Shown here piece after piece: positions 17,305-30,639 of a stretch of 30,750 nucleotides of DNA. Within the stretch, counting starts at the first letter, position 1, and every line of letters begins with the position of its first letter. The notes below the pieces were generated by a model. That model ran no database searches and was not told where the DNA came from. It was given only the letters and a program-made list of their open reading frames with translations. The DNA is from a virus. The stretch is from the UHGV virus genome UHGV-1468954. One strand, 5' to 3'. A program made the position numbers and the translations under genes.

Positions 17305-17742
17305 TCATCGAAGGCATTGCGTCCTGATGTACTCCTGCAGGTAGTTAACCTGCGCGGTTATCCTGTCGATTCCACTTCGGAGACGGTAATAATTGAGTTC
17401 AGCATCTGCTGTAAGTCTTGGGTTTTCTCCATCGCCCATGCTGCTGGCTCCGGTCGTTGACTTTGCACAGGTGGCGGCGACTTGCAGGCGCTTACGCCCA
17501 GCAGAAACATCAGCACGGAGACTTTCGATAGTCGCGTTAGCATCAGCAAGCTCCTTTGTGTATCTTGCGTCGAGTTCTGCTACATCACGTTGACGCTTCC
17601 GCATATCAGCGATGATGGATGTGGCTTTATCGCGCTGCTCTTTGTAGGCGATTGCATTATCACGGTAATGATTAACAGCCCATGACAGGCAGACGATGAT
17701 GCAAATAATCAGAGCGGAGATAATCGCGGTGACTCTGCTCAT
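17305..17742 (-). CDS. Rz: Rz spanin (i-spanin); apparent chimera
   Basis: 145 aa; the first ~33 residues ([31 protein letters not shown]) are lambda-Rz-like, the rest diverges; 145 aa is the size of P22 gene 15. Confidence 0.85.
17358..17549 (-). CDS. Rz1: Rz1 outer-membrane lipoprotein (o-spanin), embedded in Rz in the +1 frame
   Basis: 63 aa; signal peptide plus lipobox ...LLGVSAC followed by the proline-rich [13 protein letters not shown]. Confidence 0.75.
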
Positions 17743-18215
17743 ACCTCAATCTCTCTGACCGTTCCGCCAGCCTCTTTGAATTTTGCAATCAGGTTGTCAG
17801 CCTTATGCTCGAACTGACCATAACCAGCCCCCGGAAGTGAAGCCCAGATATTGCTGCAACGGTCGATTGCCTGACGAATATCACCGCGATCAATCATCGG
17901 TAAAGCGCCACGCTCTTTAATCTGTTGCAGTGCCACAGCGTCCTGGCTTTTCGGAGAGAAGTCTTTCAGGCCAAGCTGCTTACGATAGGCATCCCACCAA
18001 CGGGAAAGAAGCTGGTAACGTCCGGCTGCTGTTGATTTGAGTTTGGGGTTTAGCGTGACAAGTTTGCGAGGGTGATCGGAGTAATCAGTGAATAGCTCTC
18101 CGCCTACAATGACGTCATAACCATGATTTCTGGTTTTCTGACGTCCGTTATCAGTTCCCTCTGACCACGCCAGCATATCGAGGAACGCCTTACGTTGATT
18201 ATTGATTTCCACCAT
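17739..18215 (-). CDS. R: Endolysin (lytic transglycosylase), lambda R
   Basis: 158 aa; [62 protein letters not shown]... is near-identical to lambda R (memory). Confidence 0.9.
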
Positions 18216-18522
18216 CTTCTACTCCGGCTTTTTTAGCAGCGAAGCGTTTGATAAGCGAACCAATCGAGTCAGTACCGATGTAGCCGATAAACACGCTCGT
18301 TATATAAGCGAGATTGCTACTTAGTCCGGCGAAGTCGAGAAGGTCACGAATGAACCAGGCGATAATGGCGCACATCGTTGCGTCGATTACTGTTTTTGTA
18401 AACGCACCGCCATTATATCTGCCGCGAAGGTACGCCATTGCAAACGCAAGGATTGCCCCGATGCCTTGTTCCTTTGCCGCGAGAATGGCGGCTAACAGGT
18501 CATGTTTTTCTGGCATCTTCAT
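18199..18522 (-). CDS. S: Holin/antiholin, lambda S
   Basis: 107 aa; [39 protein letters not shown]... matches lambda S, including the dual-start Met1-Lys2-Met3. Confidence 0.9.
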
Positions 18523-21679: not shown

Positions 21680-21856
21680 TCATTTCCTCGCACGATGTCT
21701 TAGCCACCGGATATCCCACAGGTGAGCCGTGTAATTGAAGGTTTTTACGTCAGATTCTTTTGGGATTGGCTTGCGTTTATTTCTGGAGCGTTTCGTTGGA
21801 AGGTATTTGCAGTTTTCGCAGATGATGTCGGTGAAACTTCGTCGCTGTCGTCTCAT
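21680..21856 (-). CDS. ninE: NinE
   Basis: Track ORF 21680..21901; from the internal Met, [52 protein letters not shown] matches lambda NinE. Confidence 0.75.
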
Positions 21857-22263
21857 TCGTACCTCCTGTCGGTAAATCTGACACCCTGACCAATAGCCCA
21901 TGCTGTTGTGTACTCGATCAGACTTGCCATACGCTTCACACTCATCTGCGCGCTGCTTTCGCGAATGTTGACGTATTCGCCTTCAAGCCCGGGCAAAACA
22001 TCAGCTTCCTGTTTTGTTGCCACTGCATGACCGCTGATCAACAAAACCTTCCATTGTTCTGGTTTTAACCATTTATCGCGCCACTGAACTTGCCTAGCGA
22101 TATCTGCGACCATCGCGTGAAATTTTGCGTTCTGGTCAAGGTTGCGCTTGTAGTCAGTAATGCGGATGGTGACTGGCTTGTCTTTATCGAGTGGTGTTGC
22201 GAGGATGGCATTTATTGCAGCTTGCTGTTGTTGCTTAGTTCGGAGGAAGATTGTTTGCTTCAC
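21853..22263 (-). CDS. ninB: NinB (Orf-family recombination mediator)
   Basis: 136 aa; ...[20 protein letters not shown]...W... parallels the lambda NinB pattern LDQNRKLWACLGDVSRQVEW. Confidence 0.7.
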
Positions 22264-22274
22264 TGAATACTCCT

Positions 22275-22466
22275 TTATTTTTTATGCCTGTAACCCCATT
22301 CTTCCAGCAACCTTGCGGCGTACCACCCAAGAAACAAAGGAAAGAACATTACAATGAGATATTTCCCGCCACGGTCAATGTTCGAAATTGACCAGATTAC
22401 GATGTAACCAGTGCAGGACAGGAATATTACAAACCCCAAAAAGCTACTTCGTCGACTCATGCTCAC
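22275..22466 (-). CDS. Small membrane protein (63 aa, two predicted TM helices)
   Basis: MSMSRRSSFLGFVIFLSCTGYIVIWSI...MFFPLFLGWYAARLL; not present between ren and ninB in lambda. Confidence 0.45.
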   Translation of the reverse strand: MSMSRRSSFLGFVIFLSCTGYIVIWSISNIDRGGKYLIVMFFPLFLGWYAARLLEEWGYRHKK

Positions 22467-22879
22467 TCCTTCACTTTGATTCCAGCGGCGCGGATAGCCT
22501 CTACATCGCTTTCGTATTGCGATTCTGCACCTGAGTCATAGCCAATGTGATAATCACCGGGAAGTGGGCCTTTCTTTGGCTTTTGCAGCTCAATTTCAAT
22601 AGCTGCTCTCGATGCCTGCCACGTTTGCCAGTGGCCTTGAACATCGTCCATCACGTATTGACCACCAATATCACCACTGCCAATTTCATGGTGATTTTCA
22701 GGGTAACGGATAAGGTCTGAAGATTCGCCCCCACGTCGTAACCAACTCTCTTCAAACTGGCATCTGCTTTCGTCATCTTTCATAAGGCAGTCACATTCAA
22801 TAAAAATCGGCTCTCCCCAAGGAGTAGAACCTCCGCTATCACACATTCCTGTGTTATTGCACTTTTGGCACTTGCTCAC
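22463..22879 (-). CDS. Cys-rich hypothetical protein (138 aa)
   Basis: N-terminal CQKC-x5-C...C-x-C (probable zinc-binding) followed by an acidic region; 4-nt overlap with the downstream gene. Confidence 0.5.
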   Translation of the reverse strand: MSKCQKCNNTGMCDSGGSTPWGEPIFIECDCLMKDDESRCQFEESWLRRGGESSDLIRYPENHHEIGSGDIGGQYVMDDVQGHWQTWQASRAAIEIELQKPKKGPLPGDYHIGYDSGAESQYESDVEAIRAAGIKVKE

Positions 22880-22891
22880 ATTAACCTCCGA

Positions 22892-23098
22892 TTAACTCAC
22901 AAAACGCCACGCCACTTTTGCTACGACAACAGGCATAACACCGATAATCACCCACAGAAAAATGCTACCGAAAAGCACACCCACCAGGTCTTTACCTTCG
23001 CCTACCAACCGGACAAAACAGCCAGCAACCACAATGAACGTCGCCACCATCCACAGAGCACCGAGAAGCCTCAATGCAGAGAAAATCAACTCAACCAC
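22892..23098 (-). CDS. Small membrane protein (68 aa, two predicted TM helices)
   Basis: Hydrophobic throughout; apparent GTG start with GGGAGAG upstream. Confidence 0.4.
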   Translation of the reverse strand: MVELIFSALRLLGALWMVATFIVVAGCFVRLVGEGKDLVGVLFGSIFLWVIIGVMPVVVAKVAWRFVS

Positions 23099-23111
23099 GA
23101 TTTACTCTCCC

Positions 23112-23145
23112 CCAAATAAAAAGGCCTGCGATTACCTGCAGGCCT
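23112..23145 (-). terminator. tR2-like intrinsic terminator downstream of ren
   Basis: Perfect 8-bp inverted repeat AGGCCTGC-N8-GCAGGCCT, followed on the minus strand by TTTTATTT. Confidence 0.6.
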
Positions 23146-23170
23146 GTTATTAGCTCAGTGATGTAGATGG

Positions 23171-23461
23171 TCATCTTTTAACTCCATATACCGCCAATAT
23201 CCGTTTCATCGTGGCACTCTGGCGACACTCCTTAAAAATCAGGTTCGTGCTCATCTTTCCTTCCCGTTCTTCCTTGGTAGCAAACCGGTAATACACCGTT
23301 CGCCAGACCTTACCTTCGATAACCAGAAGACCTGCCCGTGCCATTTTAGCCGCGGCCTGATTTATGCTGGTTACTGTTGCGCCTGTTAGCGCGGCAACGT
23401 CCGGCGCACAGAAGCTATTATGCGTCCCCAGGTAATGAATAATTGCCTCTTTGCCCGTCAT
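23171..23461 (-). CDS. ren: Ren
   Basis: 96 aa; position after P and similarity to lambda Ren (memory). Confidence 0.8.
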   Translation of the reverse strand: MTGKEAIIHYLGTHNSFCAPDVAALTGATVTSINQAAAKMARAGLLVIEGKVWRTVYYRFATKEEREGKMSTNLIFKECRQSATMKRILAVYGVKR

Positions 23462-24159
23462 ACACTTGCTCCTTTCAGTCCTAACTTAGCTTTAATTTCT
23501 GCGATCTTCGCCAGCGCCTGAACACGATTTAGAGGTCTGCCGCCCATGACAGGAAGTTGTTTTACTGGTTCAGGTATCGTCTCACCACGGTTAATTCGCG
23601 CTGTCATACAGGTCAGTTCATCGGCAGCCTTGCGTCGTAATTCCGCGTCAGTCAGCGCATTGGCCCGCATGTTCTGGTACAGGTTGGTAACCAGCCAGTA
23701 GTGCGCGTTCGATTTCCACGGATAAGACTCTGCATCCGGATACAGGCCTCGCTTCCGGCAATACTCGTAAACCATATCAACCAGCTCGCTGACGTTTGGC
23801 AGTCCGGCGATAACGGATGCTTCTTCCCGGCACCATGCAACAAACTGCCCGGGTGATGGCAGAAATGGTCGATTCTGCCGACGGGCTACGCGCATTCCTG
23901 CGTTAACCTGTTCCATTGTGGTGATCCCGTTTTCCCGGAAAGCCAGAACCCACTGGCGGCGGATTTCATTCAGTTCGTTCTGGTCACGGTTAGCCAGACT
24001 CGCCGGGAAAGTTGCCAGTAACTGGCTGAACACACCGTTGATGATCTGCGCTACCTGCTGTACCTGCGGCTTTTCGTCGTACTGTTCCGGCATGTTGTTG
24101 GCGATCCGACGCATCTGCTCACGGTCAAAATTAACCATCTGTGCGGCGATGTTTTTCAT
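23458..24159 (-). CDS. P: Replication protein P (DnaB helicase loader)
   Basis: 233 aa; MKNIAAQMVNFDREQMRRIANNMPEQYDEKPQVQQVAQIINGVFSQLLATFPASLANRDQNELNEIRRQW... matches lambda P. Confidence 0.9.
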   Translation of the reverse strand: MKNIAAQMVNFDREQMRRIANNMPEQYDEKPQVQQVAQIINGVFSQLLATFPASLANRDQNELNEIRRQWVLAFRENGITTMEQVNAGMRVARRQNRPFLPSPGQFVAWCREEASVIAGLPNVSELVDMVYEYCRKRGLYPDAESYPWKSNAHYWLVTNLYQNMRANALTDAELRRKAADELTCMTARINRGETIPEPVKQLPVMGGRPLNRVQALAKIAEIKAKLGLKGASV

Positions 24160-25064: not shown

Positions 25065-25141
25065 TGTGGATTGATCCAGTAATGACCTCAGAATTCCATC
25101 TGGATTTGTTCAGAACGCTCGGTTGCCGCCGGGCGTTTTTT
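25065..25141 (+). ncRNA. oop: OOP-type antisense RNA (about 77 nt) covering the cII 3' end
   Basis: pO: TTGAGT (25030-35), 17-nt spacer, CATAAT (25053-58). Terminator stem CGCTCGG / CCGGGCG (one G-U pair) with a T6 run at 25116-25141. The predicted length equals lambda OOP. Confidence 0.6.
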
Positions 25142-25381
25142 ATTGGTGAGAATCGAAGCAACTTGTCGTGCCAATCGAGCCATGTCGTCGTCAACGACAC
25201 CCCATTCAAGAACAGCCAGAAGCATTCCCATTTTTGGGATGAAGCTGTCTTTCCATCGTGAAATTTGCGATTCATTAATCCCTAACGCGTCGGCAACCTT
25301 TCGCTGACCACGTACAGCAATTCGATTCAGGATGTTGCTTGTAATTGCATTCGCTTTCTTGCGAGTACTTGTAAGTTCCAT
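25088..25381 (-). CDS. cII: CII transcriptional activator; chimeric (divergent N-terminal/HTH region, lambda-like C-terminal part)
   Basis: Track ORF 25088..25468; start ATG 25381 gives 97 aa. C-terminal ...SQISRWK...LLAVLEWGVVDDDMARLARQVA.ILTNKKRPAATERSEQIQMEF matches lambda CII; residues 1-45 differ. Confidence 0.8.
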   Translation of the reverse strand: MELTSTRKKANAITSNILNRIAVRGQRKVADALGINESQISRWKDSFIPKMGMLLAVLEWGVVDDDMARLARQVASILTNKKRPAATERSEQIQMEF

Positions 25382-25439
25382 ATGTAAGTATTTCCTTAAC
25401 AAATAAGAAGTTATGCGCATCAACTTATGCGCGTTGTAT

Positions 25440-25482
25440 TCCCGCATTTCGGCGGGAATGAGGACCATGACTGTTAAAGAGC
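25440..25482 (-). promoter_or_regulatory. nutR (boxA plus boxB) between cro and cII
   Basis: Minus strand boxA GCTCTTTAACA (25472-82) and boxB hairpin UCCCGC-CGAAAU-GCGGGA (25440-57); the boxB is identical to that at nutL. Confidence 0.6.
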
Positions 25483-25788: not shown

Positions 25789-26505
<717 letters not shown>

Positions 26506-26571: not shown

Positions 26572-26952
26572 ATGAATGATCTTGATAAGAAAAAGTACGA
26601 CCAAGTTATTGATTCTGTGAACTTCGCCCTTAGATCGTTGTCAGAGTTATTCGAAGCCCATGGAATGCATGGGATGTATGATCTAACGAATCCAAGCCTT
26701 GATGAGCTAAAATTAGTGTTTACAAGGATGAAAAACGGAGTTGACTCTATTGCTCAAAGCTTTGAGCATATGGTAGAGACAGCAAAGGATATGGATGCCG
26801 CAAGTGCAAGCATAAATGTTATGAACATCAAGCAAGGATTGATGTATGCTGAATCACTATTGCTTGCTGTAGAGAAATTAGACTATGATAAATGTGTGGA
26901 AGCAAATACGCAGATAAAAACCCACGATCTTCCACCAACCCAATGGCCTTAA
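26572..26952 (+). CDS. Hypothetical protein (126 aa) at the rexA/rexB position downstream of cI
   Basis: Same strand as cI, 66 bp downstream after an AT-rich spacer; visibly AT-rich coding sequence; predicted soluble and helical; no family recognised. Confidence 0.6.
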   Translation: MNDLDKKKYDQVIDSVNFALRSLSELFEAHGMHGMYDLTNPSLDELKLVFTRMKNGVDSIAQSFEHMVETAKDMDAASASINVMNIKQGLMYAESLLLAVEKLDYDKCVEANTQIKTHDLPPTQWP

Positions 26953-27573: not shown

Positions 27574-27879
27574 ATGACAGTCGTCATTACATATCTGGCT
27601 GACGATAACACCAGAAATCGCCGCAGAGCACGCAGACAGGCTCAACGTGAGCAGGCAATGCAAGAACAGCGACTGGCGCGAAAAATTGCGCTAAAGCTCT
27701 CTGGTTGCGTCAGAGCAGATAAAGCAGCATCACTCGGAAGCCTTCGCTGCAAGAAGGCAGAAGAAGTCGAGCGTAAACAGAATCGTATTTACTACCGCAA
27801 GCCACGCAGTGAAATGGGTGTGACCTGTTCAGGCCGCCAGAAGCAACGCGGAAAATCAATTCCAGCTTATTACGATTGA
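27574..27879 (+). CDS. N: N-family transcription antiterminator (not lambda-type N-terminus)
   Basis: 101 aa; GGAGG RBS; arginine-rich motif NTRNRRRARRQAQREQ near the N-terminus; C-terminal ...VTCSGRQKQRGKSIP resembles the lambda N C-terminus (memory); first gene downstream of pL/nutL. Confidence 0.7.
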   Translation: MTVVITYLADDNTRNRRRARRQAQREQAMQEQRLARKIALKLSGCVRADKAASLGSLRCKKAEEVERKQNRIYYRKPRSEMGVTCSGRQKQRGKSIPAYYD

Positions 27880-29054: not shown

Positions 29055-29735
29055 ATGGGAACTGCGACATTAATACTCGGTGAGTCTGGCACCGGAAAAT
29101 CAACCAGCATGAGAAATATCAATCCAGAGGAAGCAATACTTATAAAACCAATAGGCAAGCCGCTACCATTTAAATCAAAAGACTGGCTTGCATGGGATGC
29201 CAGAGCAAAAAAAGGAACCGTAGTTACCACTGACAAATGGGACGTAATAGTTGCTGTAATTAAGCGTGCTCACGAATACGGAAAAAGAATCGTTATTGTT
29301 GATGACTTCCAGTATGTGATGAGCAATGAGTTTATGCGCCGCTCAGAAGAAAAATCGTTTGATAAATTTACTGAGATAGGCCGCCACGCATGGGAGGTGA
29401 TTAAGGCTGCACAGGATGCACCTGATGACCTGAGAGTCTATTTTCTTGCGCACACAGAAGAAACCCCTATGGGGCGCGTGAAAATGAAAACTATCGGCAA
29501 AATGCTGGACGAGAAAATCACTGTCGAAGGCATGTTTACTATAGTTCTTCGCACCCTTACCCGTGATGACCAGTTCTTTTTCACCACGAAAAACAACGGT
29601 GCAGACACTGTTAAATCCCCAATGGGAATGTTTGATTCCAATGAGATTGATAACGATCTCTCTTTTGTCGATGCCACTGTTTGTGATTACTACGGCATCA
29701 ATAATGTTCATCAAATTAAGGAAAACGCCGCATGA
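29055..29735 (+). CDS. Sak4-like RecA-fold ATPase (AAA_24-type), putative recombinase
   Basis: 226 aa; Walker A ILGESGTGKST at the N-terminus, Walker B RIVIVDDF; occupies the recombination slot of the pL operon. Confidence 0.6.
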   Translation: MGTATLILGESGTGKSTSMRNINPEEAILIKPIGKPLPFKSKDWLAWDARAKKGTVVTTDKWDVIVAVIKRAHEYGKRIVIVDDFQYVMSNEFMRRSEEKSFDKFTEIGRHAWEVIKAAQDAPDDLRVYFLAHTEETPMGRVKMKTIGKMLDEKITVEGMFTIVLRTLTRDDQFFFTTKNNGADTVKSPMGMFDSNEIDNDLSFVDATVCDYYGINNVHQIKENAA

Positions 29736-30319
29736 GCAACGTGATTTTTACTTATAACGAAGAAGCAGCACTGACAGCAGGGCAAGGTGGTTTTATTAAC
29801 GAAACTGGCGCTCATATCATTACCATTACTGAAGCAGAACTCAAGCAATCAGAAAAAGGCGCAAAATTTATTGAGTTTTCTGGCGAATCCGACGACGGAC
29901 GTAAAATCCAATATCTTAGCGTCTGCGTTCAGAAAAATGACGGAACGGAAAACAAATTTGGCGCAAATGTCGTTCACGCCATGATGGGGTGTGCCGGGAT
30001 TGGGCAGTTAACGCAACATATGATTTCCGTCAGTAAATTTGTTGCACCTGAATTTCATGGAAAGAAAATCGGGTTGGTGCTCCAGAAAGTATTAACCACA
30101 AACAAAAAGACTGGCGCAGACAGCTACCAGATGGAAATACGCATCCCGTTTATTGCACAAACTGGTCAAACCCTTAAAGAAAAGGCGGAAGGCAAGCAAC
30201 CAGAAACTATCGCCAACATGGTTGCCAGTCTCAAAGATAAAGACAATCGCTCTAAAAACGTAATCCAGAATCATGCAGATGATTATGGTTACAGCCAGAA
30301 CGATTACCCTCCTTTCTGA
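29732..30319 (+). CDS. Hypothetical partner protein (195 aa) with acidic/aromatic C-terminal tail; candidate ssDNA-binding partner
   Basis: 4-nt overlap with the ATPase gene; C-terminus ...HADDYGYSQNDYPPF resembles the acidic tail ending in Phe of phage SSB-like proteins. The function is inferred. Confidence 0.4.
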   Translation: MSNVIFTYNEEAALTAGQGGFINETGAHIITITEAELKQSEKGAKFIEFSGESDDGRKIQYLSVCVQKNDGTENKFGANVVHAMMGCAGIGQLTQHMISVSKFVAPEFHGKKIGLVLQKVLTTNKKTGADSYQMEIRIPFIAQTGQTLKEKAEGKQPETIANMVASLKDKDNRSKNVIQNHADDYGYSQNDYPPF

Positions 30320-30342
30320 TTACTGAAAATAAGGCTCCCATT

Positions 30343-30639
30343 ATGCCAGCGCCTCTGTATGGTGCGGATGACCCGCGCAACTGCTCCGGTAGCTCCAAGG
30401 CGGAGGTGCTGGAAAATATCAAAAACAATTTCGACACGTTTATTGCCCTGACACCAGAAACAAAAGCAGAACGGATGTACCGACGCGATATACAGCTCGC
30501 GTTAAAAGATGAGAGGGACCGAACAAACGAAACAGCAATGCGACCGTTGCGAAAAGCGACAATAGACAAATTCCCTGAATATATCGACCCGCGCCTGCGT
30601 AATTACCGCTCACGCTATGGCGCTATCAGTAATGACTGA
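30343..30639 (+). CDS. Hypothetical protein (98 aa)
   Basis: Same-strand ORF continuing the early-left operon; no family recognised. Confidence 0.4.
   Translation: MPAPLYGADDPRNCSGSSKAEVLENIKNNFDTFIALTPETKAERMYRRDIQLALKDERDRTNETAMRPLRKATIDKFPEYIDPRLRNYRSRYGAISND

What the first reader, a model, noticed from the sequence alone, without database searches (positions are those of the whole stretch)
22275..23098. Three-gene insertion between ren and ninB: two small membrane proteins flanking a Cys-rich protein
In lambda, ren is followed by ninB. Here a tR2-like terminator is followed by a 68-aa two-TM protein, a 138-aa protein with an N-terminal C-x2-C...C-x-C cluster and an acidic tail, and a 63-aa two-TM protein, tightly packed with 4-nt overlaps, before ninB. 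Membrane-protein plus zinc-finger combinations at nin-region insertion points are plausible exclusion or anti-defence cargo. I do not recognise any of the three.
Basis: inference. Interest (0 to 1): 0.55.

Follow-up and report, generated by a model that had tools for sequence, protein, structure and literature searches.

The report
Ordinary mosaic lambdoid nin-region genes
The three small genes between ren and ninB are real, but they are already catalogued, functionally uncharacterised accessory genes that lambda-like phages shuffle independently at the start of their "nin" region, and nothing found here shows that they exclude phages or block defences.

Summary
The ORFs exist as described, on the minus strand. 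In order: ren, a tR2 hairpin, a 68-aa two-TM protein, a 138-aa acidic protein with a CxxC…CxC cluster, a 61/63-aa two-TM protein, then ninB. All have good Shine-Dalgarno sites. They are not one insertion but three independently assorting modules.

- **ORF68** travels with tR2. In 79/79 related loci the hairpin lies 22-24 nt from its GTG start. In 29 of 79 loci ninB follows it directly. Its DNA occurs in 449 of 5426 complete E. coli genomes.
- **ORF138** combines a portable 4-Cys knuckle, shared with Ead/Ea22-, DUF551- and PF04447-containing proteins, with a phiTE_015 (PF26207, phrog_343) scaffold. Its two inserts are shuffled combinatorially.
- **ORF63** is rarer. A 72%-identical homolog sits alone after a DnaB-like helicase gene.

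The whole block is 98.9% identical in phage phiv205-1 and is present in 55 complete E. coli genomes. No Pfam, NCBIfam or PADLOC function was found. No fold match and no literature turned up either.

No promoter-like site lies in the region, and every transcript must read through tR2. Expression is therefore inferred to be N-dependent and lytic-phase. That argues against prophage-expressed exclusion. The most likely role is non-essential lytic-phase host modulation, and this is inference. The finding is ordinary and of low interest.

The parts
23171..23461 (-). ren (96 aa), last gene before the terminator
   Evidence: phrog_142 Ren-like exclusion protein, E=2e-41. Preceded by lambda-type P (phrog_109) and O (phrog_277).
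23091..23174 (-). ninA-type 27-codon mini-ORF (MTIYITELITGLQVIAGLFIWGRVNRG). Its ATG overlaps the ren stop (ATGA), it is read through the tR2 hairpin, and its TGA overlaps codons 2-3 of ORF68.
   Evidence: Translation. The same ORF is annotated ninA in HK620, HK630 and Lahn2. Whether it is translated was not tested.
23112..23145 (-). tR2-type intrinsic terminator: stem-loop 23145-23122 plus T-run
   Evidence: Scan. It forms the dominant hairpin in the RNA fold. It is annotated tR2 or terminator in HK620, Lahn2 and HK75. Hairpin and T-run were matched by pattern in 75 of 79 related loci. In the other 4 the hairpin is visible with one G-T pair. The stem ends 22-24 nt before the ORF68 start.
22892..23098 (-). 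ORF68: 68-aa, basic, two-TM small membrane protein (GTG start, GGGGGAGAG Shine-Dalgarno)
   Evidence: Two Kyte-Doolittle peaks. phrog_1165, E=2e-34, full length. More than 190 clusters, nearly all 68 aa. Homologs at 43-57% identity keep the length and hydrophobic pattern. pN/pS about 0.3-0.6. Equivalent to HK022 gp58, Lahn2 ORF69 and mEpX1 gp49.
22463..22879 (-). ORF138: acidic cytoplasmic protein (GTG start 5 nt after GGAGG). Residues 1-36 (22772-22879) form the 4-Cys module, residues 37-138 form the phiTE_015-type scaffold with two variable inserts.
   Evidence: phrog_343, E=3e-31. Precomputed PF26207 on all homologs. PGAP names the 106-aa form 'phiTE_015 family protein'. The Cys module recurs in several hundred other protein clusters. 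AF2 model has pLDDT 82.
22275..22460 (-). ORF63: probably 61 aa from the ATG at 22460, or 63 aa from the GTG at 22466. Basic two-TM small membrane protein.
   Evidence: Hydropathy and AAGGAG Shine-Dalgarno. Four homolog clusters, 61 aa. A 72%-identical homolog keeps the length and pattern and lies directly after a DnaB-like helicase gene. No PHROG or Pfam family.
21853..22263 (-). ninB (136 aa), downstream boundary of the variable slot
   Evidence: PF05772 NinB, E=5e-53. Found downstream of ORF68 in 79 of 80 related loci.

Best explanation
The interval is the first, highly mosaic slot of the nin region of a lambdoid phage. This phage combines lambda-type O/P/ren replication genes with P22-like late genes. 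The interval holds three independent accessory genes, plus a ninA mini-ORF, inside the pR delayed-early operon.

Shown:
- All three are real, conserved coding genes with good ribosome-binding sites.
- ORF68 forms a fixed unit with the tR2 terminator.
- ORF138 is a two-part protein. It has a portable CxxC…CxC knuckle and a phiTE_015-type helix/strand scaffold whose two inserts are swapped combinatorially.
- ORF63 assorts on its own.

Inferred:
- No promoter-like site lies in the region, and the ORF68 start is 23 nt beyond the terminator stem. The genes are therefore transcribed only when N-modified RNA polymerase reads through tR2. That means during lytic growth, not in the lysogen.
- ORF68 and ORF63 insert in the inner membrane. 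Both termini face the cytoplasm, by the positive-inside rule.
- ORF138 stays in the cytoplasm as a zinc-stabilised binding protein with variable specificity.
- Together they are non-essential lytic-phase host-modulating factors. Host take-over or counter-defence is the most likely class, rather than a prophage-expressed exclusion or defence system.
For: Gene reality.

Context: the gene order is cII, O, P, ren, nin genes, Q, holin, endolysin and Rz.

Terminator linkage: the hairpin lies 22-24 nt before a GTG start in 79/79 loci. No sigma-70-like site lies on either strand in 21800-23600.

Independent assortment in 80 IMG/VR loci:
- ninB directly follows ORF68 in 29.
- A phiTE_015-core gene lies between them in 42.
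- ORF63 is present in 10.
- The Cys module is present in 5.
- The upstream gene is a DnaB-like helicase (46 loci) or lambda P/ren (16 loci).

ORF63's relative stands alone after a helicase gene.

Intragenic shuffling in ORF138: 21 insert-1 types and 37 insert-2 types give 45 combinations among 120 parsed cluster representatives.

The Cys module also occurs in Ead/Ea22-like, DUF551 and PF04447 proteins, and in virulent Pseudomonas phages. This fits a phage lytic-cycle function.

In the AF2 model the conserved IEIEL and IKVKE strands pair, and the conserved helices pack.

The literature describes nin regions as typically mosaic and non-essential, with a pool of 30-50 genes (PMC5630979; PMC2629481).
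Against: - No expression data were available. The promoter scan is a sigma-70 consensus search and can miss weak or alternative promoters, and the efficiency of this tR2 is unknown.
- No homolog has a tested function, so 'host modulation/counter-defence' is a class-level inference.
- ORF63 shows almost no sequence diversity. All E. coli copies are at least 95% identical, so selection on it could not be measured.
- TM topology rests on hydropathy and charge only.
- Zinc binding is inferred from four conserved Cys.
Confidence: 0.6

Rival explanations
1. One reading: the block is exclusion or defence cargo (moron-like) that benefits the lysogen. The membrane proteins block DNA entry of superinfecting phages and the Cys-rich protein acts as sensor or regulator.
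For: Small inner-membrane proteins are a known class of superinfection-exclusion factors (HK97 gp15, T4 Imm; own knowledge). The block lies next to ren, itself classed as an exclusion-related gene. The slot recurrently carries small membrane proteins in other phages.
Against: No promoter-like site was found, and the genes sit directly behind tR2 in the repressor-controlled pR operon. No terminator follows the block, and its GC content is not atypical. There are no PADLOC hits. The three genes do not co-occur as a system. ORF138 relatives occur in virulent phages, which have no lysogen to protect.
Confidence: 0.1
2. The genes are auxiliaries of replication or recombination. The membrane proteins would anchor or time the replication complex, and ORF138 would assist NinB/Orf-type recombination.
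For: They lie exactly between the replication genes and ninB. The ORF63 relative lies 20 nt after a DnaB-like helicase gene.
Against: ORF68 is found with two unrelated replication modules, lambda P/ren and DnaB-like helicase. The genes are absent from lambda and from many ninB-bearing phages. The 1-kb query, which includes the ninB start, matched 392 phage records, but ORF68 matched only 107. No DNA-binding or nucleotide-binding fold was detected.
Confidence: 0.1
3. ORF68 and/or ORF63 are holin-, antiholin- or viroporin-like proteins that tune membrane potential or lysis timing.
For: Their size and two-TM topology match pinholins such as phage 21 S68 (own knowledge). ORF68 has conserved Gly, Trp and Pro residues within its TM segments.
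Against: They match no lysis PHROG. They are early-operon genes far from the lysis cassette. The phage has its own holin, endolysin and spanin at 17305-18522.
Confidence: 0.1
4. ORF63 is not a functional gene. It would be a conserved junction sequence that happens to be open.
For: It has very low diversity. No synonymous changes were available to test selection. It has no PHROG or Pfam family. It is left unannotated in phage Gally.
Against: It has a strong Shine-Dalgarno site and an ATG start. A 72%-identical homolog has 17 substitutions but the same 61-aa length and two-TM pattern, in a different genomic context.
Confidence: 0.05

Closest known systems
Escherichia phage phiv205-1 (MN340231) genes QGF19945, QGF19944 and QGF19943, and prophages of about 55 complete E. 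coli genomes including the type strain ATCC 11775
   Same: The same tR2-ORF68-ORF138-ORF63-ninB block at 98.7-99.3% DNA identity.
   Different: The upstream gene there is a DnaB-like helicase instead of lambda P plus ren. Homology starts at the last codon of ren. All three genes are annotated 'hypothetical', with shorter start choices for the two membrane proteins.
HK022 gp58 / gp59, mEpX1 gp49, Lahn2 ORF69, Sf6 gene 48 protein
   Same: HK022 gp58 is 97% identical to ORF68 and mEpX1 gp49 is 95.5% identical. HK022 gp59 overlies DNA matching the start of ORF138, and Sf6 gp48 is 63% identical to the ORF138 scaffold. All occupy the same position after tR2.
   Different: They lack the N-terminal Cys module and ORF63. 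In mEpX1 and about a third of related loci, ORF68 is followed directly by ninB.
Lambda/P22 nin region (ninA-ninI), as described by Juhala 2000 and Casjens 2004, cited in PMC5630979 and PMC2629481
   Same: The same operon position, between replication genes and Q and behind tR2. The same dispensable, mosaic, small-gene character. A ninA-type mini-ORF is present.
   Different: None of the three proteins is homologous to a named lambda nin gene.
Morons / superinfection-exclusion membrane proteins (e.g. HK97 gp15)
   Same: Small inner-membrane proteins carried as optional cargo by lambdoid phages.
   Different: A moron has its own promoter and terminator and is expressed from the prophage. Here there is no promoter-like site, no downstream terminator and no compositional difference. 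There is no sequence similarity.
DnaJ-type / lambda Q-type CxxCxGxG zinc finger
   Same: Most homologs of the N-terminal module read CxKCxGTG…CxC. The only PDB sequence hits are to the lambda Q zinc finger.
   Different: Those hits are not significant (E about 1.2-1.8). The second half-site is CxC rather than CxxCxGxG. In this window the first Gly of the CxxCxGxG motif is Asn. No Pfam model matches.
Ead/Ea22-like and DUF551 mosaic early proteins of lambdoid phages
   Same: They share the identical about 30-residue Cys module and a W..W(Q/L)A(S/C)RAA helix motif. They show the same cassette-shuffling style.
   Different: ORF138 lacks the Ead/Ea22 coiled coil and the DUF551 domain. It lies in the right operon rather than the exo-xis region.

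Membership tests
phiTE_015 family (Pfam PF26207) / phrog_343 | Significant match to the family profile | tested here: met
   phrog_343, E=3.2e-31 over residues 27-138. PF26207 is precomputed for the 100%-identical protein P0001 and all listed homologs. PGAP names the 106-aa form of an essentially identical gene (one synonymous difference) 'phiTE_015 family protein'. The local Pfam copy lacks this model. The family has no assigned function.
phrog_1165 (ORF68 family) | Full-length profile match | tested here: met
   E=2e-34, residues 1-68 against profile positions 1-68 of 68. Category 'unknown function'.
Lambda nin-region gene (positional class) | Located in the pR operon between the replication genes and Q, downstream of tR2 | tested here: met
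   Gene order is O, P, ren, tR2, the three ORFs, ninB, NinX, NinF, Roi-like, HNH, RusA, Q.
Lambda nin-region gene (positional class) | Dispensable for plaque formation (removable like nin5) | not testable with these tools
   Only indirect evidence. Each gene is absent from many otherwise similar phages.
Moron | Own promoter and terminator flanking the gene(s), allowing expression from the repressed prophage | tested here: not met
   No promoter-like sites on either strand in 21800-23600, against an expected 2.2. The only terminator is upstream (tR2). 11 nt separate the ORF63 stop from the ninB start.
Moron | Base composition different from neighbouring genes | tested here: not met
   GC is 0.49, 0.48 and 0.43 for the three ORFs, against 0.47 for the window and 0.48 for ninB.
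Known anti-phage defence systems (PADLOC-DB 2.0) | Match to any defence-protein model | tested here: not met
   No families at E<=1 for any of the three proteins.
Superinfection-exclusion membrane proteins | Blocks infection by other phages when expressed in the host | not testable with these tools
   There is no sequence relative with such an annotation. The inferred lack of lysogenic expression argues against it.
Holin / pinholin | Homology to a holin family and location in the lysis cassette | tested here: not met
   No lysis PHROG hit. The phage's holin, endolysin and Rz are at 17305-18522.
Type I toxin-antitoxin (hok/sok-like) | Small hydrophobic toxin with an overlapping antisense RNA and its promoter | tested here: not met
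   No Rfam family apart from a sub-threshold chance hit on the terminator. No promoter-like site on the opposite strand.
DnaJ/lambda-Q type zinc finger | Significant sequence match, with paired CxxCxGxG motifs binding zinc | tested here: inconclusive
   The best PDB hits are to the lambda Q zinc finger at E=1.2-1.8. No Pfam hit at E<=10. Four conserved Cys. Metal binding is untested.

The most novel reading that the evidence does not exclude
The tR2-linked unit could be a widespread lytic-phase host-interference toolkit. In this reading, ORF68 and ORF63 are small inner-membrane proteins that neutralise membrane-associated abortive-infection or exclusion effectors. ORF138 is a zinc-stabilised scaffold whose two combinatorially shuffled inserts have been diversified to bind different host immunity proteins. 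As a side possibility, translation of the ninA mini-ORF across the tR2 hairpin could couple ren/P translation both to terminator read-through and to re-initiation at ORF68.
Probability: 0.2. Interest if true: 0.6.

Novelty: already known. Interest (0 to 1): 0.22.

Why it matters
As it stands, the finding matters little. It is a typical example of the known mosaicism of lambdoid nin regions, and the exact block is already deposited in a phage genome and in dozens of E. coli genomes. The residual value is as a pointer. ORF68 is a strictly length-conserved membrane protein present in about 8% of complete E. coli genomes, including Stx phages. The ORF138 family shows unusually fine-grained intragenic cassette shuffling. 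Neither has ever been assigned a function. If either proved to be a counter-defence or host-takeover factor, it would annotate many prophage genes at once.

Tried and rejected
- **Family searches.** Pfam, NCBIfam and PADLOC searches of the three proteins found nothing.
- **PDB sequence search.** A profile search of PDB sequences found nothing.
- **First structure model.** The first AF2 model, from 19 sequences, was too poor to use (pLDDT 54). A 38-sequence alignment gave pLDDT 82.
- **ORF68 = NinA.** I first thought ORF68 might be NinA, because 'ninA' appeared under the hits. This was rejected: ninA is the 27-codon ORF across tR2 and ORF68 is a separate gene.
- **ORF68 and ORF63 as homologs.** Rejected (hhalign probability 1.3%).
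- **Lipoprotein signal.** The VAGC in ORF68 and the LSC in ORF63 were considered. The ORF68 Cys is not conserved and the ORF63 -1 position does not fit the consensus.
- **RNA elements and repeats.** Rfam gave only a sub-threshold Trp_leader hit on the terminator. No meaningful repeats were found.
- **Species-wide genome scan.** It found ORF68 only in Escherichia and in three probably contaminated MAG contigs.
- **Literature.** Eight searches found no functional study of any of the three genes. The terms covered phiTE_015, PF26207, PHROG ids, nin region with membrane, defence or tR2, and Ea22/DUF551/zinc.

Full report
**Observation**

The window is a lambdoid phage or prophage read in reverse. 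On the minus strand the gene order is cII, O, P, ren, a nin region (NinB, NinX-like, NinF, Roi/Ant-like, HNH, RusA), Q, then holin, endolysin, Rz and terminase. The repressor and N lie on the plus strand.

- ren lies at 23171-23461.
- An intrinsic-terminator hairpin lies at 23145-23122, followed by a T-run.
- ORF68 lies at 22892-23098. It has two hydrophobic segments, GRAVY 1.67 and pI 9.3.
- ORF138 lies at 22463-22879. It has pI 4.7 and Cys at positions 4, 7, 29 and 31.
- ORF63 lies at 22275-22466. It has two hydrophobic segments and pI 9.9.
- ninB lies at 21853-22263.

Each gene has a good Shine-Dalgarno sequence: GGGGGAGAG, GGAGG, AAGGAG and AAAGGAG.

Three details need correcting.
- The gaps are 12 nt (ORF68 to ORF138) and 11 nt (ORF63 to ninB).
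- The single 4-nt overlap (GTGA) exists only if ORF63 starts at the GTG. The ATG at 22460, 5 nt after AAGGAG, is the likelier start. It gives the 61-aa product called in other genomes.
- A 27-codon ninA-type mini-ORF (23174-23091) was overlooked. Its ATG overlaps the ren stop, it runs through the terminator, and its stop lies inside codons 2-3 of ORF68. The same ORF is annotated ninA in HK620, HK630 and Lahn2.

**Are they genes?**

ORF68 matches phrog_1165 end to end (E=2e-34). It has more than 190 homologous 90%-identity clusters, nearly all exactly 68 aa, from Escherichia, Shigella and Salmonella. Relatives at 43-57% identity (HK620, Salmonella P22-like phages) keep the length, the two hydrophobic segments, the LVxxGKD loop and the AKxAWRF tail. 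pN/pS against the window gene is about 0.3-0.6.

ORF138 has 160 homologous clusters and matches phrog_343.

ORF63 has only four clusters and almost no diversity in E. coli. However, a 72%-identical homolog keeps the 61-aa length and pattern. It sits in a different context, 20 nt after a DnaB-like helicase gene with neither ORF68 nor ORF138.

**Not one insertion but three modules**

The complete block is 98.9% identical in phage phiv205-1. It occurs in 55 of 5426 complete E. coli genomes, including the type strain. In those, homology begins at the last codon of ren and the upstream gene is a DnaB-like helicase.

By megablast, ORF68 DNA alone is in 449 genomes and ORF63 in 195.

I examined 80 IMG/VR loci that carry an ORF68 homolog.
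- ninB lies downstream in 79.
- In 29 of those, ninB follows ORF68 after only 6-7 nt.
- 42 loci have a phiTE_015-core gene in between.
- 10 have ORF63 and 5 have the Cys module.
- The upstream gene is a DnaB-like helicase in 46 loci and lambda P/ren in 16.

The slot also holds other small genes, among them two further small membrane proteins.

The terminator hairpin was matched by pattern in 75 of the 79 loci with enough upstream sequence. In the other four it is visible with one G-T pair. The stem always ends 22-24 nt before a GTG start.

ORF68 is therefore a fixed companion of tR2. The real variable slot lies between ORF68 and ninB. This is the 'typically mosaic' nin region described in the literature, with a pool of 30-50 non-essential genes of which each phage carries about ten (PMC5630979; PMC2629481).

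**ORF138 anatomy**

Alignment shows four parts.
- An optional N-terminal module.
- A conserved helix (SRxQFExW), followed by variable insert 1.
- A conserved helix and strand (WxxWQASRAAIEIEL), followed by variable insert 2.
- A conserved helix and strand (AIRAAGIKVKE).

Among 120 cluster representatives that could be parsed there are 21 types of insert 1 and 37 types of insert 2, in 45 combinations. The window's insert 2 occurs with at least four different insert 1 types. The sample is biased toward the query's own types.

With a 38-sequence alignment, AF2 gives pLDDT 82, and above 90 for residues 40-95. The conserved elements form the packed core, the two conserved strands pair, and the Cys module forms a beta-hairpin pair.

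The N-terminal roughly 30 residues read CxKCxxTGxxDSGGxQPWGEPIxIECDC. They form a portable module seen at 55-77% identity in most of the 279 other protein clusters hit. These include Ead/Ea22-like, DUF551 and PF04447 pyrophosphohydrolase-domain proteins, and proteins of virulent Pseudomonas, Aeromonas and Escherichia phages. Its only PDB sequence hits are to the CxxCxGxG zinc finger of lambda Q, and they are not significant (E about 1.2-1.8).

PGAP annotates a truncated 106-aa form, named 'phiTE_015 family protein'. The GGAGG plus GTG start and the conservation of the Cys module show that the 138-aa form is real.

**Function**

No evidence links any of the three to a known activity.
- No Pfam, NCBIfam or PADLOC hits.
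- No PDB sequence relative.
- Every source name is 'hypothetical'.
- Eight full-text searches found no functional study.

What the sequence does say concerns expression. No sigma-70-like site lies on either strand between 21800 and 23600. Only 23 nt separate the terminator stem from the ORF68 start codon. No terminator follows the block, and base composition is unremarkable.

Any mRNA for these genes must therefore have read through tR2 from pR. In lambdoid phages this requires induction and N antitermination (established lambda biology). This is an inference; no expression data were examined.

The inference fits poorly with a moron-like exclusion or defence function in the lysogen. It fits a non-essential lytic-phase role. 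Two observations lean the same way. ORF138 relatives and the Cys module occur in virulent phages, and ORF138's inserts are shuffled combinatorially. Both suggest a binding protein under diversifying pressure, such as a host-takeover or counter-defence factor. That remains a class-level guess.

**Rivals**

- Replication or recombination auxiliaries: about 0.1. This is weakened because ORF68 occurs with two unrelated replication modules.
- Holin-like or lysis-timing proteins: about 0.1. There is no homology, the operon is wrong, and the phage has its own lysis cassette.
- ORF63 is not a gene: about 0.05.

**Verdict**

The genes are accessory and unrecognised, but they are not a unit, and nothing supports exclusion or anti-defence. 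The genes and their families are already catalogued, and the exact block is already in public phage and E. coli genomes. The finding is an ordinary instance of nin-region mosaicism, with low interest. The only forward-looking points are the wide distribution of the tR2-linked ORF68 and the fine-grained shuffling of the ORF138 scaffold.

Noticed in passing
window 23091-23174 (- strand): A ninA-type 27-codon hydrophobic mini-ORF overlaps the ren stop (ATGA). It is read straight through the tR2 hairpin and ends inside codons 2-3 of ORF68. The arrangement suggests translational coupling from ren to ninA to ORF68, and possibly an effect of translation on termination. A sub-threshold Rfam Trp_leader hit (21.5 bits, E=0.31) lies on the same stretch.
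   Followed up: partly
L016-L095 (IMG/VR loci), slot between the ORF68 homolog and ninB: Besides phiTE_015-type genes and ORF63, the slot in other phages carries two further small membrane proteins. One is a 60-aa two-TM protein (MVNAFICSLFLVAIFHG…). The other is a 106-108-aa protein with an N-terminal TM (MADWQIPIIILAGASLVAGF…). Small membrane proteins seem to recur at this position.
   Followed up: partly
window 26572-26952 (+ strand): A 126-aa ORF (phrog_16322, unknown function) lies between the cI-like repressor (25792-26505) and N (27574-27879). Lambda carries rexAB at this position. This is a better candidate for lysogen-expressed cargo than the flagged genes.
   Followed up: no
L007 (E. 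coli S87, NZ_CM151376) and L008 (HK620, NC_002730): Annotation problems. PGAP truncates the ORF138 homolog to 106 aa, losing the Cys module, and marks the ORF68 homolog as a frameshifted pseudogene in S87. The ORF68 homolog is not annotated at all in RefSeq HK620 (locus 1495-1701). ORF63 is unannotated in phage Gally.
   Followed up: partly
L012, L014, L015 (genome-contig scan): MAG contigs labelled Cellvibrionaceae, Bacillota and Collinsella carry ORF68 at 91-96% identity to the E. coli prophage gene. This is most likely mis-binned or contaminating enterobacterial phage DNA.
   Followed up: no
window 25088-25468 (- strand): The longest ORF for cII is 126 aa, but the CII-like profile matches only residues 30-126. 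The true start is probably an internal ATG.
   Followed up: no
window 29055-30639 (+ strand): The early-left operon carries a Sak4-like annealase, an SSB and an Abc2 anti-RecBCD gene. This recombination module differs from lambda Red and sits alongside lambda-type O/P/ren and P22-like late genes, which shows how mosaic this phage is.
   Followed up: no
window 22772-22879; proteins P0265-P0391: The roughly 30-residue CxxC…CxC module is highly conserved (55-77% identity) across most of the 279 protein clusters hit by the representative search, including proteins of virulent Pseudomonas phages (PAK_P3, KPP10 group). It matches no model in the local Pfam copy.
   Followed up: partly
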